DNA of 64,000 bases from an uncultured Chloroflexia bacterium (GTDB lineage Bacteria; Chloroflexota; Limnocylindria; Limnocylindrales; CSP1-4). How positions within the stretch are numbered: the stretch's first letter is position 1; each line of letters opens with the position of its first letter. A program made the position numbers and the translations under genes. Below are positions 2,643 to 21,627 of this stretch, piece by piece. The notes under the pieces are model-generated. The model was not told where the DNA came from, ran no database searches, and saw nothing but the letters and a program-made list of their open reading frames with translations. The DNA lies in contig CAVQKK010000009.1 in NCBI GenBank assembly GCA_963713095.1, forward strand, positions 196,991 through 260,990. Direction: 5' to 3'.

Positions 2643-3367
2643 TCAACACCCGCTACACGCCGTCACAGCTGGGCGTCCGCCCGGCCCCGGCCCTCGTCCA
2701 GCAGCTCCTGGTGGGCGCCTTCGGCTGGATGTTCGCCGGGCTTCTCCTGTCGGCAGGCGTGGCCTATCTCGTGACCACCAGCACCTCGTTGCTGGAGACC
2801 GTTGCGCAGTGGTGGCTGCCGATCATCATCGGCCAGTTCGTGCTGGTCATTGCGATCCAGGCTGGTATCCGGCGCTTCTCGGCGACCGTCAGCCTGGCGT
2901 TGTTCTTCGTCTACGCGGCCACGATGGGTATGACCCTGGGCTTGATCGTGTGGGCGTTCACCACGACGCCGACCGGGACGACGTCGAACGGCGCCGCGGC
3001 GGTGGCCACGGCGTTCTTTGCCACGGCCGCCATGTTCGGCGCCGCGGCGGTCTACGGCGCAGTAGGCAAGCAGGATCTGACCAAGCTCGGCGGGATCCTG
3101 TTCATGGGCCTGATCGGGCTGCTCGTGGCCATGGTGATCAACATCTTCCTCGCCTCGAGCGCGATCTCGTGGCTCATCTCGATCGGCGGTGTCGGGCTGT
3201 TCGCCGTGCTGACTGCGTACGACGTCCAGCGCATCGCGCGCGGGGACTACGCGGCCATCACCAGCTCTCCAGAGCGCGGCTCGATCATCGGCGCCCTCCA
3301 CCTGTATCTCGACTTCATCAACATGTTCCTGTTCATGCTGCGGCTGTTCGCCGGGTCGCGGAGCTAG
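2639..3367 (+). CDS. Bax inhibitor-1/YccA family membrane protein
   Basis: Seven predicted TM helices with a BI-1 style C-terminus ('AYDVQRIARGDY...ALHLYLDFINMFLFMLRLF'). GTG start at 2639 after GAGAGGAG. The upstream part of the track ORF (from 2525) overlaps the previous gene and is Arg-rich. Confidence 0.7.
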   Translation: MINTRYTPSQLGVRPAPALVQQLLVGAFGWMFAGLLLSAGVAYLVTTSTSLLETVAQWWLPIIIGQFVLVIAIQAGIRRFSATVSLALFFVYAATMGMTLGLIVWAFTTTPTGTTSNGAAAVATAFFATAAMFGAAAVYGAVGKQDLTKLGGILFMGLIGLLVAMVINIFLASSAISWLISIGGVGLFAVLTAYDVQRIARGDYAAITSSPERGSIIGALHLYLDFINMFLFMLRLFAGSRS

Positions 3368-6300: not shown

Positions 6301-7380
6301 GAACGCCTCGGCGTTCACGATGGCCTGCGCCGCCTGTCCCGCGAAGATCTCGAGGGTCTGCTGATCGTCATCCGAGAACTGGTCGTAGCCGGCGTGAGAG
6401 ACCACGATCACGCCCAGGACCCTGGACTCATAGGTCATCGGCACCAGCAGCATCGACTCCGGGCCGCGCGTGGCGCCAATCAGCCTCCCGCGCTGGTCCG
6501 AGGCCGCATCGCCAAGGCGGATCGTCTCGTTGCGGAGAGCGACCCAGCCGGTAAGGCCCTCGCCGATCCGGACCCGCAGCTGGTCCGGCGACGGGCGGCC
6601 GATCCCCATGAACTCGCCCTGGAATGCGATCGGCTCGCACATGCGGGTCCGTTGATCCACCCGGTAGACGCGGATCGTGTCGTGGGCGATCAGCCGGTCA
6701 GCCTCGGCGACGATCGCCTCGCCGATGCCCTCGACGTCCTGGATCCGGTTGAGTCGCAGCGAGAGCTCCTGGATCGCGCGAAGCCTGGCGGCACCCTGAC
6801 GGACGGTGTTGAACAGCCGCGCGTTGGCGACTGCCGTGGCCATCTGACTGGCGAACGTCGCGCACAGGTTGAGCTCGTCCGGCGTCCACGAGTACGGGCG
6901 GCGGTGGTACAGGACCAGGAGCCCCAGGGGTTCGTCACGAAAGACCATCGGGATGAAGGCGATCGTCCGAATGCCGAGCCGCTGGTACACGGGGGCGAAG
7001 AAGGCCGCGCCGGCTGGATCGTCGAGCACGATCGGCCGCCGTTCGCGGATGCTGCGCTGGCCGGTCGTGTCATCGTCCACGGTCACGGCGGTCACGGCTT
7101 CGATCAGCTCGGCTGCCACAGCGCGCTGGGCCGCCAGCCGGAACGGGTGTCGGCCGGGGTTCAGCAGCCATAGTCCGGCGACCTCGGCGCCGAACAGCTC
7201 ACCGGACGCGTCGAGGACGTCCTGGAAGACCTCCTCGAGCTCGAGATTCGCGCTCACCTCGCTGGCCACACGACGGAGGACCTCGGCGCGCTCGGCGCCG
7301 GATCCCGGCCTGTTCATGGGCTCTGCCTTCCGTCCATTGGGGCGGCGATCCGGCGAGCCGTGGTCCGGCGCGAGTGCCAT
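3364..7380 (-). CDS. multidomain c-di-GMP signalling protein: multiple GAF domains, a GGDEF domain (intact RYGGDEF), a second GGDEF (degenerate, VGSDEF) and a C-terminal EAL domain
   Basis: 1338-aa ORF with two 'TGL(R/S)NR' GGDEF-start motifs. The EAL region reads 'LHYQPMV...VEALLRW...ELEITES...DDFGTGYSSLSYL'. An alternative start is M22 (position 7317), which has a GGAAGG-like RBS. Confidence 0.8.
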   Translation of the reverse strand: MALAPDHGSPDRRPNGRKAEPMNRPGSGAERAEVLRRVASEVSANLELEEVFQDVLDASGELFGAEVAGLWLLNPGRHPFRLAAQRAVAAELIEAVTAVTVDDDTTGQRSIRERRPIVLDDPAGAAFFAPVYQRLGIRTIAFIPMVFRDEPLGLLVLYHRRPYSWTPDELNLCATFASQMATAVANARLFNTVRQGAARLRAIQELSLRLNRIQDVEGIGEAIVAEADRLIAHDTIRVYRVDQRTRMCEPIAFQGEFMGIGRPSPDQLRVRIGEGLTGWVALRNETIRLGDAASDQRGRLIGATRGPESMLLVPMTYESRVLGVIVVSHAGYDQFSDDDQQTLEIFAGQAAQAIVNAEAFGQVRRQRQELRHRLESQRRLLEVNERLLATLDPSGVLEMIADSLNAVVAYDSLAVYRIDRAAGVRRAVVARDRFAEEILSHEGAIDVGLTGWAIRHHEAVLANDAHRDPRSVQIPGTPEEPESMIVCPLLIGGEVIGTLNVGRLGGAEAHYARDEFELVQLFAAQASIALRNAEAHGAVMTRAERDALTGLRNHGAFQRELGIMVDAGEPFALLMLDLDAFKVYNDRHGHPVGDTLLTRVADAMTETIREGDRAYRYGGDEFAILLPGVDGPQARHVMERVRATVARLTERAGPLVTISAGVSGYPADGATKDELVEAADRALYLAKPPSLRGHGEEDPTRDPYLAAVDRTTLALLEHLDPEDLLREIVDRATELVGIRDGFLYLLEDGDDGQPTMTVRVGVGTFEHLVGYRLPTGTGVGWEVVRTGRPVVIDDYDAYPDRAPDLETERFGAVCSVPLRSGGRVTGCIGLASGEANRPLAERQIGAVARFAQLASIAIDHVRLLEHARSEGSQRAYAALHDPVTGLSNRTELLDRLAALMGNPPAVDGRTAAANPPAANPPASPARVALIVLDLDRFTFVNESLGHAAGDQLLAQVGRRLVGAARPSDLVARVGSDEFGILLDRVRSPRDAERAAARLATALAEPFDLGGREVTVAASLGLAVARPSVATPADLLKEADIALHRAKADPMRTLVRFDPEMRAQSLELATMEHDLRRAIERSELRLHYQPMVNLADGTVVGVEALLRWQHPDRGLVPPLSFISLAEETGLIVPIGQWVLETACRQARSWQRFGAAAPPVVSVNLSARQFAQSDLVDRVAATLADAGLDADALELEITESVVMDQSEASIERLQALRRLGVKLVLDDFGTGYSSLSYLRHLPLDTIKIDRAFVSGLGSDAADLPIARAVISLAHGLGIGVVAEGIETTTQLDCLRDLGCDRGQGYSFARPLASEQLEALLEGAKGAPLKLRPEPAETLEG
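4616..4645. repeat. in-frame 15-nt perfect tandem duplication (CCGGAGGATTGGCCG x2) inside the GGDEF/EAL gene, encoding PAANP-PAANP
   Basis: Read directly from the sequence: '...gccggaggattggccgccggaggattggccgcc...'. Confidence 0.8.
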
Positions 7381-8407: not shown

Positions 8408-9097
8408 ATGAATACTGAGTCGATGGACGCCAACGAGACCTCCGTTCGGCCCGTCCTCAGCCGGGACCGCATCGTCGAAGCCGCAGTGGCCGTTGTGGAC
8501 GAAGCAGGAATCGACGGGCTGACCATGCGAGCCGTGGGTAGGCGCCTGCGCTCGGGCACGATGTCGCTGTACCGCCATGTCTCGGGCCGTGACGAGCTCG
8601 TGGGCCTGGTCCTGGAGGCGATGGCGGGTGAGATCCAGGCGTCTCCCCTGTCGGGCAGCTGGCGCGAGGACCTCGCGATCATCGCCCGAGACATGCGCAC
8701 GGGCCTGCTCAAGCGGCCGCAGCTGACCATCCTGCTCGCCTCGCGATCTGGGCGAGGTGGTGTCGAGCTTCCGCTGCTCGATCGAACGCTGGGCGTGCTT
8801 CGAGCCGCCGGATTCGGGCGGCGTGGGGCCGTCCTCGCCAACCATGCCCTGGGCAACTACGTCGCCGGCACCGCGCTGTGGGAGGCCGTCGGGCTCTCGG
8901 GATCGAGCGGAGAGGATCGCGAGTCACGACGTCAGGCCGTGGCTGACGTGACGGCGGCGCTCCCGGCGGACGTGTTCCCGAACCTCGCCTGGGTGGGACC
9001 CAAGATCGTGGCCGGCAGCGTCGACGACCGGTTCGAGTTCGGCCTGACGTGCCTGCTCGACGGGTTCGAGGCCTACCTCGCCCGACGCAAGGGATAG
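8408..9097 (+). CDS. TetR/AcrR family transcriptional regulator
   Basis: N-terminal HTH 'RDRIVEAAVAVVDEAGIDGLTMRAVGRRLRSGTMSLYRHVSGRDELV'. Length about 229 aa. Confidence 0.75.
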   Translation: MNTESMDANETSVRPVLSRDRIVEAAVAVVDEAGIDGLTMRAVGRRLRSGTMSLYRHVSGRDELVGLVLEAMAGEIQASPLSGSWREDLAIIARDMRTGLLKRPQLTILLASRSGRGGVELPLLDRTLGVLRAAGFGRRGAVLANHALGNYVAGTALWEAVGLSGSSGEDRESRRQAVADVTAALPADVFPNLAWVGPKIVAGSVDDRFEFGLTCLLDGFEAYLARRKG

Positions 9098-9175: not shown

Positions 9176-9198
9176 GGGGATAGTAGTAGAGGCCCTCG
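9176..9198. repeat. left imperfect inverted repeat (GGGGA-TAGTAGT-AGAGGCCCTCG) at the island boundary
   Basis: The reverse complement of 21547-21570 is GGGGGG-TAGTAGT-TAGGGGCTCG. It lies exactly at the high-GC to lower-GC transition. Confidence 0.35.
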
Positions 9199-9244
9199 AA
9201 GGGGCGGCTCAGTCTGCGATAACGCTGAAGCTCGTCTGAGCTAC

Positions 9245-9759
9245 TCAGGAGACGTGCGGCGTCCAAGTCCATGCCGCCGGCTCGGAGCTCACGGAGCAAC
9301 TCCGCCTCGCAGCCCCGCCCGACGGTACATAGAGCACGCCGTCAACATCGCTTGGACGCTCCACTTCACCGGCAACGAGGGCGACCAGTGCTCACGTCCA
9401 AGGAGGCCGATGAAATAGCAGAGTTCGAGAATGACATTCTGGCGGGCTCGGGACTGGAGTCCCTCTAGCGGAACTCCGTCGCTGGTAGCGGCCTCAAGCG
9501 CACGAAGTTCCGCGCCCAGGTCGTCTGGTGTCATCACGACAACCGCAAACGCGACGTCCACGTTCGCCTCGAACTTCTCGATGATCGTTCGCCCGCGGTT
9601 CGGTTCCTCGACGAGGATCACAGGTTCAAGGCCCACGAGGGTCATAAGCCTGGCAACCGCGTCCCGTGGCCCGGCCTCATGTCCGTGCACGATGAAGACG
9701 CGTCCCGATGCGCCCGTGCGACCTCGGGACTGCGCGAGCCGGCATCGACGCGCACGCAA
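9245..9759 (-). pseudogene. TIR-like nucleotide-binding domain protein (COG4271/pfam10137 type), disrupted by a frameshift near 9385
   Basis: 'RVFIVHGHEAGPRDAVARLM...EPVILVEEPNRGRTIIEKFE...VDVAFAVVVMTPDDLG...RARQNVILELCYFIGLLGR'. After a -1 shift the sequence continues '...VERPSDVDGVLYVPSGG', the canonical PSD.GV.Y C-terminal motif of this family. Confidence 0.5.
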
Positions 9760-12700
9760 CTGGCTCTAAGCGAACGTCCCCGGTCCGCCACGGACTGCGG
9801 CGAGCGTCGGAGGCGCTCATGTCATCGTCGCAGCCTTCGATCGGACGGCTGAGTCCGCCAGCTGCGGGGCCAATGCCAGCTTCGGAGACCCCGATACGAT
9901 CAAGGGTGAGTTGCAGCTCCTCGAGGCATCGCGCGTCGGGCGCGAGGTGGACTGCGCAATCGGCGGCCGTATTCGAAGAACGGTTTGAAGAATTTGGCCC
10001 GTGCGTATCGCAGAACCGAGTGCGGCGGCGAGAAGTTGTATCTCACGAATGAGAGCGTCCATTAGGCGTCGCTCTCCCATTCCAGCAGTTCTTACGGACC
10101 CTCAGCCAGAGGGCGCCTCCGACTGACTTCCCACTCCCGATCGATCGCCACTGCGTTTTGTGGGTTTGTAAGGGTTGGTCGAAGCTCAAGGGTAACGAGA
10201 GCGTTCTGGTAGCTGCAGAAATATCGGCACAGAGACCGGTTCAGGACCAAGGTTGCCGAGTACGCAGCGTGAGGTGGTACCACCTGGCAGTCTCCACGTG
10301 ATCAGCGCGGAGACACCCGACCACTCCAAGCGTATAGCATCACAGCTAACACCTCGCGCATGCTAGTCTCCGCGATCGGTTCCACAGCACGTTCGTAGTT
10401 GTCGATGCGGGTCGTGAGCTCAAGCAGCGCCGATAAGAAAGTCCCCGAGCTCGGGATCTGATCCGGTTGGTCGAACTCAGGAACAAGCGTCTCGTGAGCG
10501 TCTCAGCTGAATCGGCGCTGCAGCCAAGCGACGCCGCCTTCAGGACGTAGAAATTCGCGAGCTCGTTAGGATCCGAAGCGGATATCGTTTCAGTGTTGTA
10601 ATAGGTACTAAACTAAAAATATGAGTGTACAAGCTACCAAAATGGAATAAGACTCGCACTACACTGTACAGCAGTCTCGTGCAGTTCTGGACGATCTCCC
10701 GCGCAGACCGCCTCAAGGTTGCGCGCCCACTGGGATCCGACGCCGAGCGACCAATAAACACATAGCGCCGGAATGAGCACCACATCATCGCGGACTGTCG
10801 GGTGGACTATAATATGATATAGAGAATATAATAGCTTACGAGTGAGCGCGTGGTTGAATTCCCCGCGTGACAGAAGTATCGTAATCAGTAAGAGAGAGCT
10901 AAGTAGCCGACGATCAGGACGAAGTACTGGTAATCGCGAATGACGGATAGTGCGGTCTAAATATTTGAAGGTTTGGCGGTGCTGGAAAGTCGAGCGCCTC
11001 CAGTTAGGACCTCGTAACGTACTGCTCGAGTTACCATTTCACACTCGATCGTATGTCTTCAAGGTCGCGAACGGTTGAACTCACGAATACGAGAGTTGCG
11101 CCGGGTGGTAATACAGAGTCGACCACAGCTCCTCGCTAACGGTGTGTGTAGAGCGGCGATAGCGAAGCAAGCGCAAACGCGATCCCCTCACTAGGTGCTA
11201 GTACGCCTCCTAGAAGAAGTCCTCGTCAAGGCGGTAGCAGTGAAGGTGCTCTTCGGCTGGACGCTAACCCGGTAATAGACCATGTGCCGGACAACCCTAG
11301 CCGAAAATCAAGACGATCCGAACTCGAAGAACAAGAAGAAAGAATGAGACGGCGTGAAGAACGTCGTGAAATTATTTTTTTGAGAGAGTGCTATGAATAG
11401 AACTAAAGAGAAGAACTGCAAGATGAATAGTATCACTACCACTTCACAGCGTTTACCTGGACGTAGACCTTGTCGACCCGAGCTTGTCCTCATAGATACA
11501 CCATCAACCCGACGTGCGCCCGACATGCTCGCAGGGGCTGTTGGACGGAGATCTCTCTTATCTCATTGCGACGAGCTCATCGAGTACTCGCGCCGAAGAA
11601 GTCGGGTTTTCTCGCTTTTAGTTTCGCGAGTAGCGCTTTTTCTAGTTCGCCGCGCAGATTCCGATACGTCGTCTCCTCTTGCTCCTCGGGCGTGAGAACC
11701 GACTCAGCAGCGTGCTCGGCTCTCTGTTCGTTGTCGCTAGTAGATGTCTTCGACTTACCGCCGATGAAGTTGACGATCTCCGCCTTCGCACCGCCACCAG
11801 CGCCTGGCCGATCAGCCACGGGTTGACCATCAGCAGATCCGCACACGCTAGGTTCCGGAACTTGCCGTGTCCCTCTGATCCGAGCAGTCCAGCGTGGCGC
11901 ACGCACGTCAACGCTCATTGTGTTCGGTTGTTGACGTGCGCATGCGCCCGAGGCAGGAACTGCGCGAGATCCCGAGGCCGAGCTTATACAGCCACGCGAT
12001 CTGCTCCTCGGCCTCTGCTCCGGTATGTATCTCACAATCGCCGTCGAACCGGAGCAGGAGCACCATCAGACACGGTAGACGAGAACGTCCACCTTTCCCT
12101 CCATAGCGGATTGCGATACTCCAAGCCTTCGCACCGCCGACGGCCTCGTTGGCCCTCAGCCAAAGCTACGGGTTGACCATCCCGTTCGTCGGCTTCTCGC
12201 GTCACGCAAAATAGTCATCACCCGACTCTGCGACCGCTCGCATCACCCGTTCCTCCGCAGCCGCGAGCGCACGGTGAACTCTGGCGCCTCGGTCAGCTCC
12301 ATGGTCCGAGCGCTCCCACTCCCGAGCCCGGCACCACGACCCCCATCGTCATCCAGCGGATCCTCGTGAACATCGCTCGACTCAATCCGTCTCGGCCTCC
12401 CGAGCCGGTTGCTCTCCTGCCGATGTGGCGGACAGTGATGGCGATTACGTCGAGCCGCGGCAGGACCCCGACGCTTCCACGGTATCCACGACCGCCGACT
12501 GGTTCCCTCCTTCACCGTCACGGCGTCCGGTTGGGTGAGCAAGTCGTATAGTGCGCAGGCGGACGCACCCGCGCTCGCCACCCGGTCGGGTGGTCTCCCG
12601 TAGCGGGACCCCAGTCCGTCGTCGACTCACGGCATACGCAGGTACTCGTCGGGTTTGCTCGACTACGAGGCGATGGAGTGATAGAGCGGCCGGCGAGCTC

Positions 12701-13288
12701 GGCGGTTGCGGCACCAACGTATCGAGGTGTGCATCAGGAGGAAGCTGAACGGCTTCACGCTCGCGGCGTACGACCGGCTTGCGTTTTACTGATCGAACAA
12801 TCCTGCCAGTACGGGCGTGGTGATCGGCGCCTGGCTCACGGCGGGTAGATCGAACCATGAGGGTTCGGCACCCGGATCGTCACCGTTCGTCTCCGCGATG
12901 ATCCGGCGCCACCGATCTCGACCCATACGGGCCACGTCGCATGCCAATCGTCGGCGTTCGATCGGTGCTGATACAGCTCAAGGCTATGGTTAGATGCCTT
13001 GCGGATGACGATGCCCGCGGGGGTCAATAGAACAGGCATACCGCGAAGTGCTGGTCGAGATAGCTACAGTCGTGACGTGCGAAAATGGCACAGTGCCGAT
13101 TGATCGGACCAACGGCGCGCGGATCTCCCGGCGGGCGGCCCCAGATGGCTCTCGAGGGCGGCGATTGGGTGCCTTCATCGTCTCTCGTCTATGTGATGCG
13201 AAGTGACCGATGCGAACTTATGGTTTTTGATATGGTTTAGATTAATGTATGTTTCTTATACTCGAGCTTGAGCATATCGGGGATCGTA

Positions 13289-14284
13289 TCACGATCGTAC
13301 GGATTGAGTAGGTTGATGGTCGCAGGATGCGTCGACGACGGCCTCATGACAGCGCCCGGACCGCAAGGGCCCATCGGCCGATGCCGATCCTACGGGAGCA
13401 GGCAACGAGCCCACGACAGGCGTCGACACGATGGCCACCGAGTCAGTGTCGCAAGCGACATAGGACCCGATGCCGGCAGCGACGTGGCCTGGGCGAGCCC
13501 GAGCGGCAGGCCCCGGCAGGCTGTTGGTGCCAGTGCAGGGAGCGCCGGCATTCATGGCAGTGACGCCCGTAGGTGCAGTGCGGAGAACGCCCAGCCCGAT
13601 CGCAGCTCAGCGACACCCGTGGATGACGTGGCAAGCACTTGAGGAACTTGTCGAGGCGTTAGCGTTCGCTCTCCGGCAGCGTACCGTGTTTGATCCGCCC
13701 GTTCCTTGATGACTTGGCGAAGAGGTCGTAGCGCAGTAGGTGGATCTAGACGCGTAATGGAGAAGAAAGTTGTGTAATAATATGTAATTAAAGTAGAGAG
13801 TAATTGAATCGCTGAGGATTTCCCGCTCATTGGGGTGGGTGACGGCGATGAGGCGAGGGTTGCCAGAGCGGACCAGGCGACATTTGACCCGATCGTCCAC
13901 GCGCCACGCCCGCCTCGGCGACCAACGCGACGGCACGAGGACCGCCACGAGCGACATGACGATGAGCACTGGAAACACGTTGGCCAGCACGCGTCCAGCC
14001 AGTCACATGGAGCCGATGACTCGTGATTGTGTCGAGGAAAGCCGCCGCGTCGGCGGTGGCGTCGACCGCTCGAAGTGGTCCGAGATCACGTGCGTCCACA
14101 GATCGAGCAGGACGAACACGGTCGGGTACATCGACGCGAAGTCGACGTACCGCACCGGGAGCTCGACGCCGCGGATCGGCACTCGGTCCGCCCGCCGTAG
14201 TAGGCGGTCATCGAGTACCCCAGGACCGCGTCGGCCACGAGGTTGGAGCGCGCCATCGGCTGCCTGTCCCGAGGCGAAGGTCAA
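13289..14284 (-). pseudogene. family B DNA polymerase (PolB) remnant, heavily decayed and frameshifted
   Basis: Three conserved motifs are present. A YxGG motif ('GYSMTAYYGGRTE', about 14178-14216) is followed about 22 aa later, after a 1-nt frameshift, by motif A 'VRYVDFASMYPTVF' (about 14090-14130). Compare Pfu '[30 protein letters not shown]'. Motif C 'SYVACDTDSVAIV' sits at 13436-13465. A degenerate motif B-like 'AKSSRNGRIKHG' lies in the AT-rich stretch between them. Confidence 0.5.
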
Positions 14285-14430
14285 GAGCCATGCCGCAGCT
14301 GGAGGCGGAGACCCCGTTTGGGGTCGGCCCCGCGCCTATCGAGGGCGATCCTCGGTGCCATCCGGGTTGAACCGGACGACCGTCGGCTGTAGCGAAACGT
14401 GGTCAGCACACCGTGCGCCGCGACGGTGTC

Positions 14431-16113
14431 CTAGTGGTGCTCGACCTCGAACTCCTTGGCGGCCGCATCGGGCCCCAGCGAACGATCGGTGAGCACGTAA
14501 GAGAGGGTGTGTATGTCGAGGAACAGCACTTGGTAGTAGTCACGTTCGCCGACGAGGTTCGACTCATCCACGATCACCGGGCCGGTGAAGCCGATGAACT
14601 GACGCTTGGAGCCCAGCGACTGGACCTGGAGGTGGGTCGGAACATTCGACCTCGATGGGTCCCATCTTGGCCATCGGCATCGGGGCCCAGCGAACGATCT
14701 GGAGATTTCGACCCACCTGCACCGATCGCGGCCAGCCTTCCATTTCCACAGAGGCAGACGTGCCAAGCGGCCGGACCATGAGGCCCGACAGGGCCTTCGA
14801 ATGCCAGAGAACACCCCTATCCGGCGAGGGTGGCTGGCGATGGCGAAGCGTTCCAGAGCACTACCCCGGGATGAACCGTCAAGCCTCTTGTGGAAATGTA
14901 GCGAGCGGGCGCTTCGGCCGCATGCGTCTCGACGTAGCGCTCGAGGACCGCCCGGTCGGCCGGTGCCAGGTCGTCCGCGGCGATCAGGCCCTCCTGGAGG
15001 AGCTCCCGTCCCGCGCGCGGTACACGCGCTATCTGCCGAACAGCAGGTGCTGCGACGTGGCGAAGATCGTCTCGGTGACAAGCACGACCTCGAGCTCGGA
15101 CGGCTCAAGCGACTCTTGTGGATGTAGCGAGCGGGTGGGACGGTTGTAGGCGCGAACGGCAATCGGACCTTTGTAGGTCCCGGAGCGTCGGCGCCGGCTC
15201 ATGCCGCGATAGGGCTCGATGGCGCACCCTTCCACCACTCGGGTCCAAGCTGCTCGCGCAGCCACACGACGAGCCGGATCAGCCAGGCCGCGCTCGGCCA
15301 CAGGAGACTTGAGAACCGGCCAGCACCTGGCCCGCTACGAGGATCGGGTCGGCATCGGCTCCGGCCATCGCCTGAGCGAGCCGATGCGCTGCTCGGTATC
15401 GCGGGGGCGATCGGACGCAGCCGGCGGCGCAGCTCTCGGAAGGCACGCTCGATCAGGTTGGTCGTGCGCAGGCTGGCCCGGAGCGACTCGGGCAGCGCGA
15501 ACACGGCGAGCAGGCTCTCGAGATCGCGCTCGAGGTTGCGCACGAGGCCCGGGTGCCGTGAGCCGCCAGCTCCTCGCCCAGCGCCGGCCGCAGTACGCCG
15601 GCCGTGCTCCTCGCTGGTAGACCCGTAATGGAGCTCGTGGCCGGCGGCCAGCCGGTCGACGACTCGGCACGGGTGACGAGCAGGACCCGCCGGCCGTCGA
15701 GCGTGAACGTCTTTCGACGTAGCTAAAAGAGCAGGGTCGCGCGCTCGGCCCGGAGGTAGTGAGAGCGCGTCGAGTACGTTCCAGAGGGATGCGATGGGTC
15801 CAGCAGCGCTGGAGGGCGACGCCTCGGGGAACGGTCGTCGGGACGGTATTTCTCGCGGAATGCGATCGAAGGCTCGAGGTCTCCACCGCCGGCCGCAGCC
15901 GCGAAATCCCGTCCGGCGGCGAAGGCCGTCGGCGCGTGACCAGCAGCACCTGATCGGGATCGAGACCCCCGCTCGACGAGCGAGGTCAGCAGTCGAGCGC
16001 GCGTTCACGAGCGTATGGGTCCCTAATTCGAATTCTTGTAGCCACAGCCATGGACTCCGCAGCGAGATCGCTCCGGTGGACGGTTCCACCGTTGGCGAAA
16101 CCGTCCACCTCAC
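14431..16113 (-). mobile_element. IS256-family (Mutator-like) transposase remnants; no intact ORF
   Basis: The signature 'FALPESLRASLRTTNLIERAFRELRRR' (about 15445-15525) is the IS256 C-terminal motif. Flanking frames are scrambled. A roughly 35-bp direct repeat 'tcaagc.nctcttgtgga(a)atgtagcgagcggg' occurs at about 14880-14914 and 15103-15136. Confidence 0.4.
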
Positions 16114-16128
16114 GCGGGCACTGTTGTA

Positions 16129-16946
16129 GTGCGAGATTCCCCGCTATGGCAAGAGAGCCGCGGTCTACGAGGAACTCGCCGCTTGGGCAAGGTCGCAGCA
16201 CTACCCGAGGGTGACGGGCTCGGTTGTTCACCTGTGGGTGAAGAGGGCGCTCCTGCCGCGAGCCGGCCGCCGGTACACCGCGTTCGGTGTATACCAAACG
16301 ACCCTCGGACCCGGGACACGGGAGCAACTCCCAGGCTATGCCACTACCGATACGAGGTCGGCATTGGCCGGACGGCCTTGCTCCGTGGCCTGCTCTGGCT
16401 CGAAGGGTTCGACCTCCCGCCGGATGCCATTCGGGAGGCGCTCGAACGCTATCGGCGACGCCGCCTGGAACGAGAGCGGGCCATCAAGCGCCGGGCGGCA
16501 CGCCGCGATGCAGAGGACGATCCCGACGACTTCATTGTCGAGTACATGGCGATGCAGCCGCTCTGGAATCTGATGCTTCCCGAGCTCTCGTCCATCGAGC
16601 GAACAACGGTGCTCACGGAGGTCGCGCTGTCCCTGGCCCTCGGCGACCGCATCTCGCCCTTCGTAATGCGGATGATCACCCGCGAGTTCGCCGGGACGCG
16701 CCGTTCGACCGGGGAGCATTCTCGGGCCTCATGGAGGGCTTGCGGTCGGTCCATCGGGAGGCTGCGGAGGTGACCGATCAGCATCTCGCAACCGCGCGCA
16801 GGCTGTCGGCCGACGGCTATGGCGAACGCGTGACCGACCAGCCCTCACGGGCTCAAGGTAGCGGGCGCTCCAACGGCTCGCGGCGTCCGGTGCCAGGCAG
16901 GCCATCGGGGCGTTCCGACGCCATGCGGGCCGGGCAGAAGCGCTGA
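16129..16946 (+). CDS. hypothetical protein within the island, no recognisable family; apparent frameshift near 16700
   Basis: Coding-like GC3 in 'YRYEVGIGRTALLRGLLWLEGFDLPPDAIREALERYRRRRLERE...FIVEYMAMQPLWNLMLPEL...'. Coding potential continues in another frame ('...FSGLMEGLRSVHREAAEVTDQHLATARRLSADGYGERV'). Confidence 0.3.
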
Positions 16947-17096
16947 CCGACCCGCAACTGACGAGAGCGGACGACCCCGTCGAATGAGACAATGGGGACA
17001 TCACCATAGCGCCCCCGCGGCCGCGGTAACGGCCCGGGGGCATGGCACACGGAGGTCAAGTCCGCATGCGCCGTCAGGCTATCGATCGCGGGCAGC

Positions 17097-18673
17097 GTGG
17101 CCAGCCGACCTCACGCCCCCGCGGGGTGTCCTCGTCCTCTCTGGCTACGGCCTCTCCGGCGTGTGTGGCGAGGCCGGCTCAGGGTCGCCGACGGGATCGG
17201 GCGGCTCCGCCAGGAAGGGTTCGTCCACCGCGCCACAGGTGGACTCAAGCGCATGGTCGTTCTCGGCCATACCGGGTCGATCACGTTCGATGCGATCCGC
17301 TGGCTCGCCGACATCGGTGCGGGCTACGTCCAAGTCGACGAGGACGGGCGGGTACTGGCGGCGTTCGGGCCGCAGGGCACCGACCGGCCACCGGTGCGGC
17401 GTGCCCAGGCGGACGCGCTCGACACGGCATGGGGGATCGTGATCGCCCGGGAGCTCATCCACCGCAAGCTCGATGAGCAGGTGCGGACGCTGCGCGACCT
17501 CGAGCAGGTACTGCGGGTTGATCCCTCTGCATGGGCGGCGATCGAGCTGGCGCAAGGGAGGCTCCGCATCGCCGCGACGCGCGATGACATCCGAATGGCG
17601 GAGGCTGCAGCGGCGGCTGCGTACTGGGGGCCTGGGCGCCGCTGGAGCTCCGCTGGGCGCGTCGGGACGCCGACCGGGTGCCGACACACTGGCGCACGTT
17701 CGGGTCACGAGCGTCGCCGCTGACCGGTGGCACGAGGCTTGCGGTCAATCCGGCCAACGCGATCCTGAACTACCTGTACGCATTGCTCGAGGGGGAGGCA
17801 TCCATCGCGGCACGGATCGTGGGGGTCGATCCGGGGTTGGGCGTCCTCCATGCCGATCAGCTCAACCGCGACTCGCTGTCGGCAGACCTCATGGAACCGG
17901 TGCGTCCGATGGTGGATCGATACGTGCTCGATCTGCTATCCAAGGGCCCCTTTGCAGCGTCGGACTTCCATGAGACCCGTCAGGGCGTATGTCGCATTAC
18001 CCCACCATTGGCGCATGAGCTGGCGATGACATCGATCGAATGGGGGCGATGGGCGGGTCGCATCGCGGAAGATGTCGCCACGATGCTCGAGCATGGGGCA
18101 ATGGATGGTGCCCCATCGAACCGGGCACCATCACGATCGAACGGGAAGCGATCGCTCCCAACCCCGATCAGTGGGCGCAATCGGAGCACCGGACGGGGTA
18201 GATCCAAGGGGCGGAAGCATGGTTCGACCACACCGAGGGTGAGTCGAGCATGCATCCATTGCGGGGGTCCGGTTCCATCGGGACGCATGACGTGTGGGGA
18301 CGCATGCGAGCAAGCGACCCGCGCGATTGGGGTCGATACGTTCGCGTCGGCAGGGGCGGAGGCGCTCCGCAAGCGGCATGCGGAAGGGGTCGCGGTTCAG
18401 CTCACTGATGCGGGACGAGGTCGGTTGCGCGACCGCGCATCGAGCAGGGTCCGCGAGGCCCGTGCATGGCAACGCGAGCATGCGTGGCCATCGGACCCTG
18501 ATCGGTTCGAGCGGGAGATCCTGTCAGGGCTGGCAAACGTGCCGGTTCGCGATCTGGTCGAGGCGACCGGACTCTCCGATGCCTACTGCCGGAGGATCAA
18601 GCGGGGACAGGTGGTGCCCCATCCGATGTGGTGGGACGCGCTCCGGAATTCAGTCAAACCGGAACCCGAATAG
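17097..18673 (+). pseudogene. Cas1-family integrase homologue with a C-terminal Zn-ribbon + HTH extension (casposase-like / Cas1-solo). One single-base frameshift in a G5 run at about 17627-17631.
   Basis: N-terminal part: 'LKRMVVLGHTGSITFDAIRWLADIGAGYVQVDEDGRVLA...VRRAQADA...ARELIHRKLDEQ'. After the shift: 'AVNPANAILNYLYALLEGE...GVDPGLGVLHADQLNRDSLSADLMEPVRPMVDRYVLDLL'. These contain the Cas1 catalytic motifs GxLH and DLMEP.R. The C-terminus has 'CIHCGG...CGDAC' and an HTH 'VRDLVEATGLSDAYCRRIKRG'. No cas2 or CRISPR repeats are nearby. Confidence 0.65.
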
Positions 18674-20319
18674 ACCGCCGTCTTCAGTGGCGTCAGTCAG
18701 ACGTGGCTCAACCACGCTCTCGTGACCCAAGCTATCGACAAGCTGCGGCCAGTCGTCTGAGTTGAGGGTTACGAGGTACTGGAAACCAACTCGTTCGGTC
18801 TGGCCGCGAGCATATTGGAGCGCGGTGCCCACCTGACGAACGTCCACGCCGTCGAAGAGATGGCTGTCGTGAATGAGGAAGCCTGGGGCAACTCCAGCGG
18901 ACGCGGCGGCCGCGTACAGGGCCATGTCGAAGGAGAAGATCTCCATTCTTCTCACCCCTGAACTGCGATCGCCTTGGATCGCCGGTCGGAGCTGAAGGCC
19001 CGACGCATCGACCGAGATCTCAAGGCTACCGGGCTCCTCGTACAGGAAGCCGGAGGCGTGCTCAAATGACCTCGCCACGCGCTCCAGGGTCGCCTCCTGC
19101 TCGGCGAGGTCCTGCTGTAGCCGCAGCAACTGCTGGCTCTTTTCGACTCGGAGCTCTGCCCGACGCCGCTCGACATCGACGGCCGATGAGAGTGCCTCCC
19201 GAGCCCTGATTGCGTCCAACTCCGCCTCGGCAAGTTGCCGCTGAATCGCGAGAAGCTGCTCAGTGGCGCCGTGCTCTCCAAGCAGACGCCGAAGTTGTTC
19301 CTGGCGAGTGGTCAGGCGTGAGACCTCGCGTTGTCGGCCCTGGATGCGAGCTCCGGGCGCCGCCGTCTCCCCATCTAGGTAGCGGCCTCGGTTGCGCACG
19401 ACGGCCTCGTGAAACGCTTGGGCTTCGTCGAGGCGATGCATAACGAGTTCAGGGCATGACGATGCCGAGCTTCTCGTATGCGGGCGTCACGTCGACGGCT
19501 TGGTGCTGCAATCTCAGCCTGTAGAGCTTCGTCGACCTGGGTGATCTGTCGGCGATCGACCACATCCAGGTCCGCCAAGGACCCGAGGGTCTCCGTCACG
19601 GCCGCTAGCTCAACCTCAAGGTCGTCGTATTGTGGAAGGACCCGGAACTCAGAGGCCGCGCGTCTAAGCTCCTCGAGTCTCCCGTCCGCACGTGCAGCGC
19701 GTGCGCGGAGTTCCCCGGAATAGGCCCGGCGGTTGAGGGTGGCATCCTCCTCGCGAATCCGCTGGAGCTCGGCCGCGATCTCCCAGTCCAAGCCCAGTAA
19801 GTACATGAGCCACGCCTCTTGGTTCCCACGCGGCTGCTGAGGGAAGTACTTGAGAGGCGACAAGAAGCCCCCGGTGGCCTCACGGCGGGCGAAGTACCCG
19901 AAGAGTTGGCGCATTGACGGTTCGCCGGGTGCTCCGGTCAAGCCAAACCAAGCCCTCCCTAAGTGCTGCTTCCATTCGTCGACCGAGAGGCCCTGAGCCT
20001 GGCCATCGTCGCCGAGTCCAGTGACCTCGACATGGCCGAGCGTGGACGTCGAGCGCTCGACACCCAGGGTGGATCCCGCCACATCCATCTCCATCCCAAA
20101 GGTCACACCCTGGAGCGCCTCCTTGCGAAACAAGGAGCGCTGATCAACGTTTGCGCCGGTTAGGAAGTGGATGATCTCCACCAAACTCGACTTGCCAGCC
20201 CGGTTTCGAGTCTGCTGGTCGCTTGAGATCGCGGTTCGGTCCGCAAGAACCACACTGAGGCCTGGGCGGAATGACATCGCCTTGAATGAGTTCAACGAGC
20301 TCCAGACGCGGTAGATCAT
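18650..20319 (-). pseudogene. SMC-like ABC ATPase of an ABC-3C/Lamassu-like defence module; frameshift near 19340-19440
   Basis: The N-terminal half (19375-20319) has the Walker A 'TRNRAGKSSLVEIIHFL' followed by a long coiled coil. The C-terminal half (18650-19441) has more coiled coil, then 'GDRSSGVRRME' and a Walker B-like 'GFLIHDSHLFDGVD'. The two halves overlap by 67 nt in different frames. Confidence 0.6.
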
Positions 20320-20558
20320 CTCTTCGCGAGCCGTCCATCTCGCAGATCCACAGCATCGATCGCGTAGAGCAGGTCCAGGGCAAGCACGAACCAGTCGAAC
20401 GGGACCGCTGCCTCACCAGTCCAGCTGCCGGTCTCGCTGCGCTTGTACCGATCCCATAGGGCGGTGACCGGGGCAGGCTCAGCGAGGAGTGTGAGCACCT
20501 CCGCACCTATGTGGATCAGCGAGCGCCGTTGGTCGAGGTGTTTGGTGGGAAGGATCAC
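20316..20558 (-). CDS. small (80-aa) alpha-helical middle component of the three-gene ABC ATPase module
   Basis: Both ends overlap the flanking genes in ATGA junctions. Ends 'FDWFVLALDLLYAIDAVDLRDGRL'. Assignment rests on size and position; the middle-component family is not securely recognised. Confidence 0.4.
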   Translation of the reverse strand: MILPTKHLDQRRSLIHIGAEVLTLLAEPAPVTALWDRYKRSETGSWTGEAAVPFDWFVLALDLLYAIDAVDLRDGRLAKR

Positions 20559-21478
20559 GGCACGCCCGTCGGCACATCATCGAAGATGTCGCAGCGCTCG
20601 AACAGATAGGCGAGGAGGGCCAAGGCCGCAGCCTGCTCTGCTGGGACGACGACGCGGTCCCCACTGACGAAGGCCTGAAGTTCGGCGAAGATTCGGTCCG
20701 GGCCTAGGCCGTGGCCCTTGAGCTCCTCATACCTGGCCCTGAAGGCCGCCGCGACGCGATCGGCCAACGCAGGGTTGGGCGACCTCCCGAAGAACTCGCG
20801 CACTTGTGGCGTCCTCTCCATGCCGACCACGAGGAGACGCCGCACGAAGTCAGACAGCCTGTTGTACTCGAGCTTCTCCGGGGAGGGCGCGGTGACAGAC
20901 GGAGCGATCGGGACCGGGCCGAGCGCCAGCGCTTGCACGAGCGGCTCAATGGCATCAAACCGGAGACCAATCACGTCGCGCCGCTCGGGAGCCGGGCCCA
21001 AGAGCGCGCGGATGTCCTCGTCCGACAATCGGAACACCTCGTCGCGAATGGCCTCGAGCGACCAAGTCGCCACTGTGAGGCCCTCGGGATCGTTGGCCTC
21101 GGGCGTCTTAGCCTCCGCGAGTACGTTGCAAGCGACGCCGAGGGGGTGGTTGTGGACGTAGACCCACTGCTTCATGGTTGGCCAATGAGTCTTTGCCCCA
21201 GCGAAGTCAGCCTTCATCTTCGCCACGCCCCGGGCGTCCATCTCGTCCGGCCCATAGCACTGGAACACTGTTCCACTGCTCGCTAGGTAGCCATCATTCT
21301 TCAGATCGCCAGTTGGCCCCGCTGCCCTGACGCGCACAAAGTCCCTTGGGTGTCCAAGACTCATCACGTCAGCGAAGAAATCCTGGAAGGCGGCGCCACG
21401 ACGCTTCAGGAACTCAACCTGCAGGCGGAGTTCGTACCAGTCCCTGGCTACCTGATCCACCGACTCCCCCTGCCGCAC
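20555..21478 (-). CDS. predicted effector component of the module: N-terminal PD-(D/E)xK nuclease-like region (possibly LmuA/Cap4-like) plus a helical C-terminal domain
   Basis: 307 aa. 'HPRDFVRVRAAGPTGDLKNDGY' is compatible with a D...D-x-K nuclease core. The stop overlaps the start of the small middle gene. Confidence 0.35.
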   Translation of the reverse strand: MRQGESVDQVARDWYELRLQVEFLKRRGAAFQDFFADVMSLGHPRDFVRVRAAGPTGDLKNDGYLASSGTVFQCYGPDEMDARGVAKMKADFAGAKTHWPTMKQWVYVHNHPLGVACNVLAEAKTPEANDPEGLTVATWSLEAIRDEVFRLSDEDIRALLGPAPERRDVIGLRFDAIEPLVQALALGPVPIAPSVTAPSPEKLEYNRLSDFVRRLLVVGMERTPQVREFFGRSPNPALADRVAAAFRARYEELKGHGLGPDRIFAELQAFVSGDRVVVPAEQAAALALLAYLFERCDIFDDVPTGVP

Positions 21479-21546
21479 ATGCGCCTGCGAATGGAGTCTA
21501 ACGCGAGTGTGGGCGATCGCCCCGACCAGTAGGCGGCGGCAACTTC

Positions 21547-21570
21547 GCGAGCCCCTAACTACTACCCCCC
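21547..21570. repeat. right imperfect inverted repeat partner of 9176-9198
   Basis: 'cgagcccctaACTACTAcccccc'. It sits immediately before the GC content rises again. Confidence 0.35.
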
Positions 21571-21627
21571 AGACTCGTTGACGCGATCGCAGCGCGGAAC
21601 TAGACTCAATCCCGACGAAATCGGTCG

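What the first reader, a model, noticed from the sequence alone, without database searches (positions are those of the whole stretch)
18650..21478. Translationally coupled three-gene module: predicted nuclease-like effector, an 80-aa helical protein and a coiled-coil ABC ATPase (ABC-3C / Lamassu-like defence system)
The three minus-strand genes overlap by ATGA at both junctions. The last gene is an SMC-like ABC ATPase with Walker A 'NRAGKSSL', a long coiled-coil insert and 'LIHDSHLFDGVD'. The first gene has a PD-(D/E)xK-like N-terminus ('DFVRVRAAGPTGDLK'). This is the hallmark layout of ABC-three-component and Lamassu-type anti-phage systems. The ATPase ORF is broken once around 19340-19440, either by decay or by an indel error. 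The module converges on, and overlaps by 24 nt, the Cas1-like gene, so it appears to be cargo of the same element.
Basis: partly seen in the sequence, partly recalled or inferred. Interest (0 to 1): 0.7.

Follow-up and report, generated by a model that had tools for sequence, protein, structure and literature searches.

The report
ABC-3C defence module on a casposon
The three genes are a recognisable member of the ABC-three-component (Lamassu-superfamily) candidate anti-phage systems with a restriction-endonuclease-fold effector; the family is already in Pfam, PADLOC and RefSeq naming, so the module is ordinary, and the mildly new points are that it rides at one end of a Cas1/PolB transposon (casposon) and that its broken ATPase gene is more likely a bad consensus than real decay.

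Summary
Window 18650-21478 (- strand) encodes three proteins.

- **Middle component:** 80 aa, Pfam MC6.
- **ATPase:** DUF2326 coiled-coil ABC ATPase, PADLOC PDC-M68B. Its nearest structures are YydD, then Lamassu LmuB.

Order and 4-nt overlaps are conserved in six other loci. RefSeq already names the genes "ABC-three component system protein / middle component 6" on 44 plasmids.

Corrections:
- The first junction is GTGA, not ATGA.
- The ATPase is broken by two 1-nt insertions (about 19506 and 19452-19454), not one. They sit in a 155-nt patch with 12 substitutions.

An independent assembly (L007) is identical across the effector and MC genes and has an intact 555-aa ATPase and an intact 536-aa Cas1. 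The lesions are private, patchy, base-unbiased and not homopolymer-linked, so I favour a consensus artefact (about 0.7) over decay. Only the reads can settle it.

The module is cargo at the Cas1-proximal end of a roughly 12.4-kb casposon (Cas1, PolB, 27-nt terminal motifs at 9176 and 21574). Twelve related casposons carry other genes in that slot. The subtype is untested experimentally. Interest is low to moderate.

The parts
20555..21478 (-). Effector gene: 307 aa from GTG 21478, or 301 aa from GTG 21460. N-terminal PD-(D/E)xK nuclease domain (about aa 1-165) plus C-terminal helical CTD10 docking domain (aa 176-299).
20316..20558 (-). Middle component, 80 aa, MC6 family. GTGA overlap with the effector stop and ATGA overlap with the ATPase start.
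   Evidence: Pfam PF20293 E 2.4e-19. Junction sequences. Identical protein in L006 and L007. Conserved in L001, L002, L003, L005 and L020, with 15 invariant columns.
18650..20319 (-). ABC ATPase gene (DUF2326 / PDC-M68B), 555 aa when repaired. Walker A 'RNRAGKSS', a coiled-coil arm spanning roughly residues 182-435 in the model of the 565-aa homologue P0001, and Walker B 'FLIHD-S-H'. In the window it is split into three reading frames.
   Evidence: Pfam PF10088 E 1.5e-33. PADLOC PDC-M68B profile positions 1-296 and 319-581. More than 1,294 homologues of 565-588 aa. Intact 555-aa allele in L007. AF2 model of homologue P0001. Foldseek matches to YydD, then LmuB, then Rad50.
19357..19511 (-). Lesion patch in the ATPase gene: 12 substitutions and two 1-nt insertions (19506; 19452-19454) relative to L006 and L007. 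It causes the frame changes A to C to B and loses the invariant Pro272.
   Evidence: Three-frame translation and family alignment. Position list and alignment. Invariant columns.
17065..18673 (+). Casposase (Cas1-solo with C-terminal Zn-ribbon and HTH-like tail). It converges on the ATPase with a 24-nt overlap. In the window it is split by at least two frameshifts (about 17159 and about 17630).
   Evidence: Pfam Cas_Cas1 on both fragments. Intact 536-aa version in L007, E 1.9e-38. tblastn shows three frames. Indel positions.
21543..21574 (-). Right terminal motif of the element (GGGGGTAGTAGTTAGGGGCTCGCGAAG), 65-85 nt upstream of the effector start. Contigs L006 and L007 end 11-18 nt beyond it.
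   Evidence: The same motif is found in the related casposon loci L008, L009 and L019. Contig ends.
9176..9201 (+). Left terminal motif, an inverted copy of the right one with 4 mismatches and 1 indel. It lies just after the TetR-family gene that ends at 9097.
   Evidence: The local alignment score of 27 is not above the best shuffle (30), so on its own it is weak. Its position and its recurrence in related loci support it.
12674..15238 (-). Family-B DNA polymerase remnants of the casposon, heavily disrupted in the window. Motif A 'DFASMYPT' lies at about 14100-14123.
   Evidence: The L007 906-aa protein carries ExoI, ExoII and ExoIII motifs and motifs A, B and C. tblastn to the window gives many frames at 33-100% identity.

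Best explanation
**What it is.** A three-gene ABC-three-component (ABC-3C, Lamassu-superfamily) conflict system of the MC6/CTD10 subtype, equal to PADLOC candidate PDC-M68.

**What is shown.**
- The gene order is effector, middle component, ATPase, with 4-nt start/stop overlaps.
- The effector is a PD-(D/E)xK nuclease domain fused to a helical CTD10 domain.
- The ATPase is an SMC/Rad50-like ABC protein. Its head is split by a long coiled coil.
- The trio is conserved as a unit across phyla and on plasmids.

**What is inferred, by analogy with solved Lamassu complexes.**
- An ATPase dimer, together with the small MC protein, holds one effector by its C-terminal domain at the coiled-coil apex and keeps the nuclease monomeric and inactive.
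- Recognition of aberrant DNA of an invader (DNA ends or replication intermediates), plus ATP turnover, releases the effector.
- The released effector oligomerises through its CTD and degrades DNA, aborting the infection.

**Context here.** The module is accessory cargo in the variable slot between the casposase gene and the terminal repeat of a roughly 12.4-kb bacterial casposon.

**The breaks.** The two frameshifts in the ATPase gene are most likely consensus errors of the assembly. An otherwise identical intact allele exists elsewhere.
For: **Family membership.** Pfam MC6, CTD10 and DUF2326. PADLOC PDC-M68A and PDC-M68B.

**Conserved trio with 4-nt overlaps.** Seen in L001-L005 and L020 and in 44 RefSeq plasmids annotated as ABC-three component system.

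**Effector fold and catalytic motif.**

**ATPase fold.** Nearest to YydD, then to LmuB of the solved Salmonella and Vibrio Lamassu complexes.

**Link to a validated system.** V. cholerae DdmABC/Lamassu is itself an ABC-3C with CTD7 and MC3 (PMC11707656). A review counts ABC-3C inside the Lamassu superfamily (PMC10586767).

**Mechanism template.** An LmuA1B2C1 complex with apex-bound CTD, DNA-end sensing, and a CTD-mediated LmuA tetramer (10.1101/2025.04.02.646746).

**Cargo status.**
- L007 has Cas1 and PolB with all polymerase motifs.
- Terminal motifs lie at both ends.
- Twelve related Cas1+PolB loci lack the module and have other genes in the slot.
- L001, at 62% identity, keeps the ATPase/Cas1 24-nt overlap.

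**Artefact reading of the breaks.**
- L007 is intact and identical across 20000-21500.
- Lesions are private to the window or to L006, never to L007.
- They are patchy, with ts/tv about 0.6 and equal per-base substitution rates with no homopolymer preference.
- The core genes flanking the island give full-length Pfam matches.
Against: - No member of the MC6/CTD10/DUF2326 subtype has been tested. PADLOC lists PDC systems as untested candidates, and a literature search for DUF2326, YydD and PDC-M68 found nothing functional.
- Canonical LmuB HMMs match only weakly. Sequence searches against PDB find no relative. Foldseek does not link the effector or its CTD to solved LmuA. MC6 (80 aa) is about half the size of short-Lamassu LmuC. 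The Lamassu mechanism is therefore an analogy.
- The Walker B Asp is followed by Ser-His, not the catalytic Glu, in the whole family, so the ATPase cycle may differ.
- As deposited, the ATPase gene is not translatable as one protein. Differences of 20-40% in parts of the element are larger than usual polished-assembly error, so real inactivation in this genome is not excluded.
Confidence: 0.8

Rival explanations
1. The module is a genuine pseudogene relic in this genome. The ATPase and the casposase really carry the frameshifts, the casposon is dead and decaying, and only the effector and MC ORFs remain open by chance or recency.
For: As deposited, the ATPase has two frameshifts and loses the invariant Pro272. 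Cas1 has at least two frameshifts and PolB is shattered. Deletions outnumber insertions by about 4:1, as in bacterial pseudogenes. Core genes next to the island are clean, so the problem is local to the element. Differences of 20-40% exceed ordinary consensus error.
Against: - Per-base substitution rates are equal for A, C, G and T, and ts/tv is 0.6. The GC-to-AT and transition excess of natural decay is absent.
- Deletions are not enriched in homopolymers.
- Lesions are patchy, from 0 to more than 20 per 50 nt, next to kilobases that are 100% identical to L007 including synonymous sites. No single age fits.
- L006 has an independent set of lesions at other places, and L007 has none.
Confidence: 0.27
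2. The trio acts mainly as an addiction or competition module for the casposon. It would kill cells that lose the element, or exclude rival mobile elements, rather than serve as host anti-phage immunity.
For: It sits inside the element next to the terminal repeat. The association with the casposase gene is kept at 62% protein identity. Lamassu/DdmABC is known to act on plasmids as well as on phages (PMC10586767).
Against: The same trio occurs without any casposon, on chromosomes and on 44 plasmids. Twelve related casposons do without it. Nothing here distinguishes this role from ordinary defence cargo.
Confidence: 0.1
3. The ATPase and nuclease are part of the casposon's own replication or transposition machinery, a Rad50/Mre11-like end-processing complex.
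For: The ATPase is structurally Rad50/SbcC-like. Casposon mobility creates DNA ends. The gene overlaps the casposase gene tail to tail.
Against: It is absent from all 12 related Cas1+PolB loci. It is present in many loci with no Cas1 or PolB. The effector is a REase-fold protein with an ABC-3C docking domain, not an Mre11/SbcD phosphoesterase.
Confidence: 0.03
4. The ATPase is a housekeeping repair ATPase such as RecN, SbcC or RecF, with unrelated neighbours.
For: Generic SMC_N/Rad50-like fold.
Against: NCBIfam finds no housekeeping family. Pfam and PADLOC place it in DUF2326/PDC-M68B. It has an obligatory MC6 and CTD10 partnership in every locus seen. It lies in a lower-GC mobile island.
Confidence: 0.01

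Closest known systems
ABC-3C systems of the MC6/CTD10 type as annotated in RefSeq (for example Enterobacter kobei plasmid pSG.H2a_1, WP_196351380/381/382); PADLOC candidate PDC-M68
   Same: Same three families in the same order, with 4-nt overlaps. Similar sizes: 306/83/573 aa there, against 301-307/80/555 aa here. ATPase identity is about 40%. Both PDC-M68 HMMs match.
   Different: Here the trio is inside a casposon of a high-GC uncultured bacterium. As deposited, the ATPase is frameshifted. The nearest relative outside this element lineage is 61-63% identical (P0001).
Lamassu / DdmABC (LmuA-LmuC-LmuB; V. cholerae, Salmonella; an ABC-3C subtype with CTD7 and MC3)
   Same: Effector, small middle protein, then an SMC-like ABC ATPase. 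The effector is a nuclease domain plus a helical C-terminal docking domain. The ATPase fold is the second-best PDB match (E 7e-12 to 1.5e-9). Both are filed under ABC-3C.
   Different: Different Pfam families for the CTD (10 against 7) and the MC (6 against 3). LmuB HMMs match only weakly. There is no PDB sequence hit. MC6 is much smaller than LmuC. The effector N-domain is a generic REase fold rather than Cap4, and no fold match to LmuA was detected. The Walker B motif is D-S-H. Anti-phage activity is untested.
Bacillus subtilis YydD (DUF2326) with YydB, PDB 9a6c integrative model
   Same: Best structural match of the ATPase: E 5.7e-25, TM 0.61. JGI labels the homologues as the YydD/DUF2326 family.
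   Different: Only 18% identity. The partner effector family differs. The function of the yyd genes is also unknown.
Family 3 (bacterial) casposons, Krupovic et al. 2014 (PMC4046053)
   Same: A Cas1-solo casposase with Zn-binding and HTH extensions, a family-B polymerase and terminal inverted repeats. The variable cargo includes nucleases and restriction-type genes.
   Different: An ABC-3C trio is not among the cargo listed in that paper. Family assignment by phylogeny was not done here. The target-site duplication was not established.

Membership tests
ABC-3C (ABC-three component system; Pfam MC/CTD families) | ABC ATPase with Walker A, a coiled-coil insert and a C-terminal head half | tested here: met
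   Walker A RNRAGKSS. Pfam DUF2326 E 1.5e-33. The homologue model has helices 182-435 between the head halves. Foldseek matches SMC, Rad50 and LmuB.
ABC-3C (ABC-three component system; Pfam MC/CTD families) | Small middle component of a defined MC family encoded between effector and ATPase | tested here: met
   PF20293 MC6 E 2.4e-19, 69.5 bits against a cut-off of 27.2. Conserved in 5 other loci.
ABC-3C (ABC-three component system; Pfam MC/CTD families) | Effector protein with an N-terminal enzymatic domain and a family-specific C-terminal domain (CTD) | tested here: met
ABC-3C (ABC-three component system; Pfam MC/CTD families) | Conserved operon (effector-MC-ATPase) across unrelated genomes | tested here: met
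   L001-L005 and L020, all with 4-nt overlaps. 44 plasmids.
ABC-3C (ABC-three component system; Pfam MC/CTD families) | All three genes intact in this genome | tested here: inconclusive
   Effector and MC are intact. The ATPase has two 1-nt insertions in the deposited sequence. The intact allele L007 exists. The reads were not available.
PADLOC PDC-M68 (untested phage-defence candidate) | Both component HMMs (A and B) present and adjacent | tested here: met
   PDC-M68A E 1.3e-20. PDC-M68B E 1.1e-57 (N half) and 8.3e-71 (C half). The status 'untested candidate' comes from the source preprint.
Lamassu (LmuA/LmuB/LmuC) | ATPase recognised by LmuB family models | tested here: not met
   The best LmuB HMMs give E 5e-5 and 0.0028, against 1e-57 and 8e-71 for PDC-M68B. 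The family profile finds no LmuB chain in PDB at E<=0.1. DefenseFinder models were not available.
Lamassu (LmuA/LmuB/LmuC) | LmuB-like three-dimensional architecture | tested here: met
   Foldseek hits 9hqu, 9hqx and 9nyg LmuB with E 7e-12 to 1.5e-9, probability 1.0 and TM 0.36-0.41. They rank directly after YydD.
Lamassu (LmuA/LmuB/LmuC) | Effector CTD and middle protein homologous to LmuA-CTD and LmuC, forming an A1B2C1 complex | tested here: inconclusive
   Foldseek of the effector model finds no LmuA chain. The CTD is a 6-7-helix bundle, like the 5-6-helix short LmuA CTDs described in the preprint read. No multimer prediction tool was available.
Lamassu (LmuA/LmuB/LmuC) | Protection against phage or plasmids dependent on ATPase and effector active sites | not testable with these tools
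   Needs experiments. No published test of this subtype was found.
Casposon (context of the module) | Cas1-solo casposase plus family-B DNA polymerase in one element | tested here: met
   L007 has a Cas1 of 536 aa (Pfam E 1.9e-38) and a 906-aa PolB with Exo I-III and motifs A-C. Remnants of both are in the window. The same pair is in 9 of 12 related GTDB loci.
Casposon (context of the module) | [quoted passage not shown] | tested here: inconclusive
   A 27-nt motif lies in inverted orientation at 9176-9201 and 21543-21574 and recurs in L008, L009 and L019. The pairwise score is not above the shuffles. A TSD was not established.
Housekeeping SMC-like repair ATPases (RecN, SbcC, RecF) | Match to the curated equivalog models | tested here: not met
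   NCBIfam finds no family for either ATPase fragment at E<=0.1.

The most novel reading that the evidence does not exclude
The scrambling of the element is biological. On this reading, each integrated copy of this casposon (the window and L006) has been hit by a local, base-unbiased, indel-rich mutagenic process. That process destroys the casposase, the polymerase and part of the ATPase gene, while neighbouring kilobases, including the effector and MC genes, stay identical to the intact master copy (L007). It would amount to a host or element-borne way of inactivating a self-synthesising transposon.

A milder novel reading is that this casposon lineage uses the slot between the casposase gene and the terminal repeat as a defence-cargo bay. 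The ABC-3C sits there, with Mrr-like and TIR-like candidates on the other arm. The probability given below is for the strong reading.
Probability: 0.05. Interest if true: 0.8.

Novelty: new member of a known kind. Interest (0 to 1): 0.3.

Why it matters
For the module itself, little changes. It is a correctly recognised member of a catalogued family that NCBI's annotation pipeline already names.

- **An untested subtype.** The MC6/CTD10/DUF2326 subtype is widespread: more than 1,294 ATPase homologues were found in a search limited to 8,000 scored candidates, and 44 plasmids carry it. No member has been tested. It also departs from solved Lamassu systems in three respects: a tiny middle protein, a Walker B motif without the catalytic Glu, and no detectable LmuA-like CTD. 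The intact L007 allele is therefore a reasonable candidate for a first functional and structural test.
- **Casposons as defence carriers.** This bacterial casposon carries candidate defence systems at its ends. That adds casposons to the mobile elements that ferry Lamassu-type systems.
- **A practical warning.** Broken genes in strain-variable islands of metagenome-assembled genomes can be consensus artefacts. They should not be scored as decay without the reads.

Tried and rejected
- **Six-frame Pfam scan of the island.** It was replaced by tblastn with the L006 and L007 proteins.
- **Source contig.** Looking it up through the identical effector P0121 failed, because no such gene is on record. 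The identical MC6 protein gave L006 and L007 instead.
- **Single-frameshift model.** A direct A-to-B frame change, as tblastn suggested, was rejected. The frame-C peptide matches the family consensus and L007 shows two insertions.
- **Independent contigs carrying either ATPase allele.** A JGI metagenome scan with a 49-nt pattern matching both alleles found nothing.
- **Internal homology between the effector CTD and the ATPase arm.** This was suggested by the Pfam CTD10 hit on ATPase residues 258-364. BLASTP and hhalign find nothing, so it stays unexplained.
- **Sequence relatives in PDB.** None was found for the effector profile, the ATPase or the ATPase profile.
- **CRISPR array, tRNA target or obvious long TIRs near the Cas1 gene.** None was found.
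- **Defence annotation of the cargo in related casposons L008 and L009.** Pfam and PADLOC found nothing.
- **Phage genomes.** No homologue of the ATPase was found.
- **The original ABC-3C paper (Krishnan et al. 2020).** It is not held in the library, so its definitions are taken from the Pfam names and from papers citing it.
- **Natural decay as the cause of the lesions.** It was considered and judged less likely, for the spectrum and patchiness reasons.

Full report
**1. The observation**

The region 18650-21478 holds four minus-strand ORFs:
- 20555-21478, 307 aa
- 20316-20558, 80 aa
- 19375-20319, 314 aa
- 18650-19441, 263 aa

The quoted peptides 'NRAGKSSL', 'LIHDSHLFDGVD' and 'DFVRVRAAGPTGDLK' are all there. 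The MC/ATPase junction is ATGA, but the effector/MC junction is GTGA, because the 80-aa ORF starts with GTG. The ATPase C-terminal ORF overlaps the plus-strand Cas1-like ORF (17678-18673) by 24 nt, as stated. The effector may start at GTG 21478 or at GTG 21460. The public gene call P0121 (301 aa, 100% identical) uses the latter.

**2. Family assignment**

- Pfam finds CTD10 (PF20275, E 2.8e-17) in residues 176-299 of the 307-aa protein.
- Pfam finds MC6 (PF20293, E 2.4e-19) over the whole 80-aa protein.
- Pfam finds DUF2326 (PF10088, E 1.5e-33) at the C-terminus of the ATPase. All three are above their curated cut-offs.
- PADLOC matches PDC-M68A in the effector. It matches PDC-M68B in both ATPase fragments: profile positions 1-296 and 319-581, E 1.1e-57 and 8.3e-71. 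Canonical LmuB models score only E 5e-5 and 0.0028.
- NCBIfam has no family for any of the three proteins, so no housekeeping RecN/SbcC equivalog applies.
- PDC systems are, in the words of their authors, untested candidates.

**3. Conservation**

A search with the repaired ATPase found more than 1,294 homologues of 565-588 aa (the search scored at most 8,000 candidates). Several are named 'ABC-three component system protein' or 'YydD (DUF2326 family)'. The closest is 61% identical.

Contexts of five of them (L001-L005) show the same order: a CTD10 protein of about 300 aa, an MC6 protein of 80-81 aa, then the ATPase, with 4-nt overlaps at both junctions.

tblastn against PLSDB finds the ATPase on 44 plasmids, including Streptomyces, Phaeobacter, Agrobacterium, Enterobacter and Brucella. 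There are none in phages. On Enterobacter kobei pSG.H2a_1, PGAP annotates the trio as 'ABC-three component system protein / ABC-three component system middle component 6 / ABC-three component system protein', again with 4-nt overlaps.

MC6 proteins from six loci share 15 invariant positions.

**4. The effector**

- 54 homologues share the motif FQDFF..IME..YP.GDFVRVRPWG..GD[RL]K[NC]DGY...LFQCYAP. D58 is invariant, and D46, K60 and Q73 are nearly invariant.
- The AF2 model (pLDDT 89, pTM 0.86) has an alpha-alpha-beta-beta-beta-alpha-beta core followed by a 6-7-helix C-terminal bundle.
- Foldseek against PDB gives nothing below E 0.01 and no LmuA chain. A family profile finds no PDB sequence relative.

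The CTD has no demonstrable relative among solved structures.

**5. The ATPase**

The model of homologue P0001 (pLDDT 84) shows an ABC head split by long helices spanning residues 182-435. The Foldseek hits, in order:
- the integrative YydD-YydB model 9a6c, E 5.7e-25, TM 0.61
- LmuB of the Salmonella and Vibrio Lamassu complexes (9hqu, 9hqx, 9nyg), E 7e-12 to 1.5e-9
- Rad50, SMC and JetC

There is no PDB sequence match, even with a 30-sequence profile. The family invariants include Walker A (R38 N39 A41 G42 K43 S45) and 'F480 L481. H483 D484 S485 H486 L487. D489 G490 V491 D492'. The Walker B aspartate is thus followed by Ser-His rather than the usual catalytic Glu. This is read directly from the sequence, and its consequence is not known.

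**6. The break in the ATPase**

tblastn with homologues suggested one shift. Translation of all three frames shows something else. Between frame A (ending '...ALQAEIAAP') and frame B (starting '...ELVMHRLDEAQAFHE'), the third frame encodes 'AVDVTPAYEKLGIVMP'. That peptide fits the family consensus '..DL..iY.EaGi.LP', whereas frame A's 'SRRRDARIREARHR' does not.

The proof is L007, a 9,411-bp Logan contig from ERR11571143 that encodes the identical MC6 protein. Its ATPase is an uninterrupted 555 aa and its Cas1 is 536 aa.

Relative to L007, and to a third copy L006, the window has one extra base at 19506 and one in the C-run at 19452-19454. These lie inside a 155-nt patch (19357-19511) that also holds 12 substitutions. 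Most of the substitutions are non-synonymous, and they include loss of the invariant Pro272. The remaining roughly 2.7 kb of the module differs from L007 at five positions, one of them private to L007.

**7. Error or decay?**

In a three-way alignment, almost every difference is private to the window or private to L006. L007 has practically none. The other properties of the lesions:
- **Patchiness.** At 50-nt resolution they run from 0 to more than 20 differences per bin. In the PolB region of the window they reach 20-40%.
- **Spectrum.** ts/tv is about 0.6.
- **Base preference.** Per-base substitution rates are the same for A, C, G and T (0.14-0.19).
- **Indels.** Deletions outnumber insertions by about 4:1, but deleted bases are not enriched in homopolymers (0.39 against a background of 0.41).
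- **Location.** The core genes on both sides give full-length Pfam matches.

Natural decay would show a GC-to-AT and transition excess, and a roughly uniform age along the element. It would not leave kilobases identical to L007, including synonymous sites, next to scrambled patches. It would also not produce independent patches in L006 while L007 stays clean.

I therefore favour a poor consensus over a strain-variable, low-coverage or heterogeneous element. L006 carries a Flye-style contig name, and related GTDB loci come from long-read 'MFD' MAGs. I put this at about 0.7. The size of the differences is larger than normal polished error, so real inactivation (about 0.27) is not excluded. Only the reads can decide.

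**8. Surroundings: a casposon**

- The Cas1-like gene in the window is split into three frames. In L007 it is intact, with a C-terminal Zn-ribbon (CIHCGG...CGDAC) and an HTH-like tail.
- L007 also encodes a 906-aa family-B polymerase. It carries ExoI (DTET), ExoII (NLPFD), ExoIII (YNRQD), motif A (DFASMYPT), motif B (KVLANAAAYG) and motif C (YVACDTDS). Shattered remnants lie at window 12674-15238.
- A 27-nt motif (GGGGGTAGTAGTTAGGGGCTCGCGAAG) lies at 21543-21574 on the minus strand, and an imperfect inverted copy lies at 9176-9201. The motif recurs in related loci L008, L009 and L019. The pairwise score alone is not above the shuffles.
- Contigs L006 and L007 both stop 11-18 nt outside the right motif.
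- The island has a lower GC content than its flanks. It lies between a TetR-family gene and an Rrf2-sufCSU operon.

A genome-collection scan with the L007 casposase found 12 related loci in MAGs of Chloroflexi, Actinomycetes, Acidobacteriota, Gemmatimonadales and Coriobacteriia. Most have the same PolB, p147, p82 and Cas1 arrangement. None has the ABC-3C trio within 10 kb. In L008 and L009 the slot between Cas1 and the terminal motif holds other, unannotated genes that converge on Cas1.

Only the window, L006, L007 and the 62%-identical L001 have the trio. L007 and L001 keep the 24-nt tail-to-tail overlap. 'Cargo of the same element' is therefore supported. The element resembles the bacterial family 3 casposons of Krupovic et al. 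2014. No phylogeny was made.

**9. How it most likely works**

Shown: the parts list and its conservation.

Inferred by analogy:
- V. cholerae DdmABC/Lamassu is itself an ABC-3C with CTD7 and MC3, and reviews place ABC-3C in the Lamassu superfamily.
- Cryo-EM of Lamassu shows an LmuA1B2C1 complex. In it the LmuB coiled-coil apex, LmuC and the LmuA CTD sequester a monomeric nuclease.
- DNA-end binding and ATP hydrolysis release LmuA. It then tetramerises through its CTD to form an active DNA-cleaving site.

The present trio has the same logic: a nuclease with a helical CTD, a small middle protein and an SMC-like ATPase. It differs in family, in the size of the middle protein and in the Walker B motif. 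The steps of sensing, release and oligomerisation are hypotheses.

**10. Novelty and verdict**

The system belongs to a family already present in Pfam, PADLOC and RefSeq product names, so the module is a new member of a known kind. The modestly new points are:
- It is carried by a casposon, together with Mrr-like and TIR-like (PDC-S35) remnants on the other arm.
- No member of this subtype has been tested.
- The odd lesion pattern is most likely technical.

Interest is 0.3.

Noticed in passing
window 9176-21574 (also L006, L007): The whole lower-GC island is a roughly 12.4-kb casposon. It has a Cas1-solo casposase, a family-B polymerase, small conserved genes (p82, p147, p284) and 27-nt terminal motifs. 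It is inserted between a TetR-family gene and the Rrf2-suf operon. Related elements occur in MAGs of five phyla.
   Followed up: yes
window 12400-17700; L006 throughout: Each of two public copies carries its own patchy lesions, from 0 to more than 40% per 50 nt. They are base-unbiased, deletion-rich and not linked to homopolymers. A third copy (L007) is clean. They look like consensus noise over a strain-variable element. Neither natural decay nor normal polished error explains them fully.
   Followed up: partly
window 9289-9759 (-): A fragment of a TIR-like protein matching PADLOC candidate PDC-S35 (E 1.6e-38), just inside the left terminal motif. A CAP12/Pycsar-type TIR gene also sits 1.3 kb upstream of the unrelated ABC-3C locus L002.
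   Followed up: partly
window 11439-12163 (-); L006 9575-10386: Mrr-like restriction endonuclease remnants (Mrr_N plus Mrr_cat in L006) on the left arm of the element. The casposon therefore carries several defence-type genes.
   Followed up: partly
L007 1270-2937 (ATPase residues 258-364); all ATPase homologues P0001-P0120: The Pfam CTD10 model, which is meant for the effector C-terminus, also scores 38 bits (above its cut-off) on the coiled-coil region of the ATPase. BLASTP and hhalign between the two families find no similarity.
   Followed up: partly
window 18776-18811 (-), 'FLIHDSHLFDGVD': The Walker B aspartate is followed by Ser-His instead of the catalytic glutamate. These residues are invariant in 30 family members, which suggests an atypical ATPase cycle.
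   Followed up: no
window 18650-18673; L001 2339-2362; L007 2914-2937: The last 8 codons of the casposase are read from the antisense of the highly conserved ATPase C-terminus ('GLFGFRFD'). The casposase tail after 'HPMWW' differs in casposons that lack the module. There is no intergenic space or terminator between the convergent genes.
   Followed up: partly
L008 14833-16740: A second terminal motif and a second, fragmented PolB lie next to the first casposon in a Chloroflexi MAG. They suggest tandem or nested casposon copies.
   Followed up: no
window 3364-7380 (-): A large intact signalling protein of 1,338 aa (four GAF domains, two GGDEF stretches and one EAL domain) lies in the core flank. 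It is unrelated to the finding.
   Followed up: no
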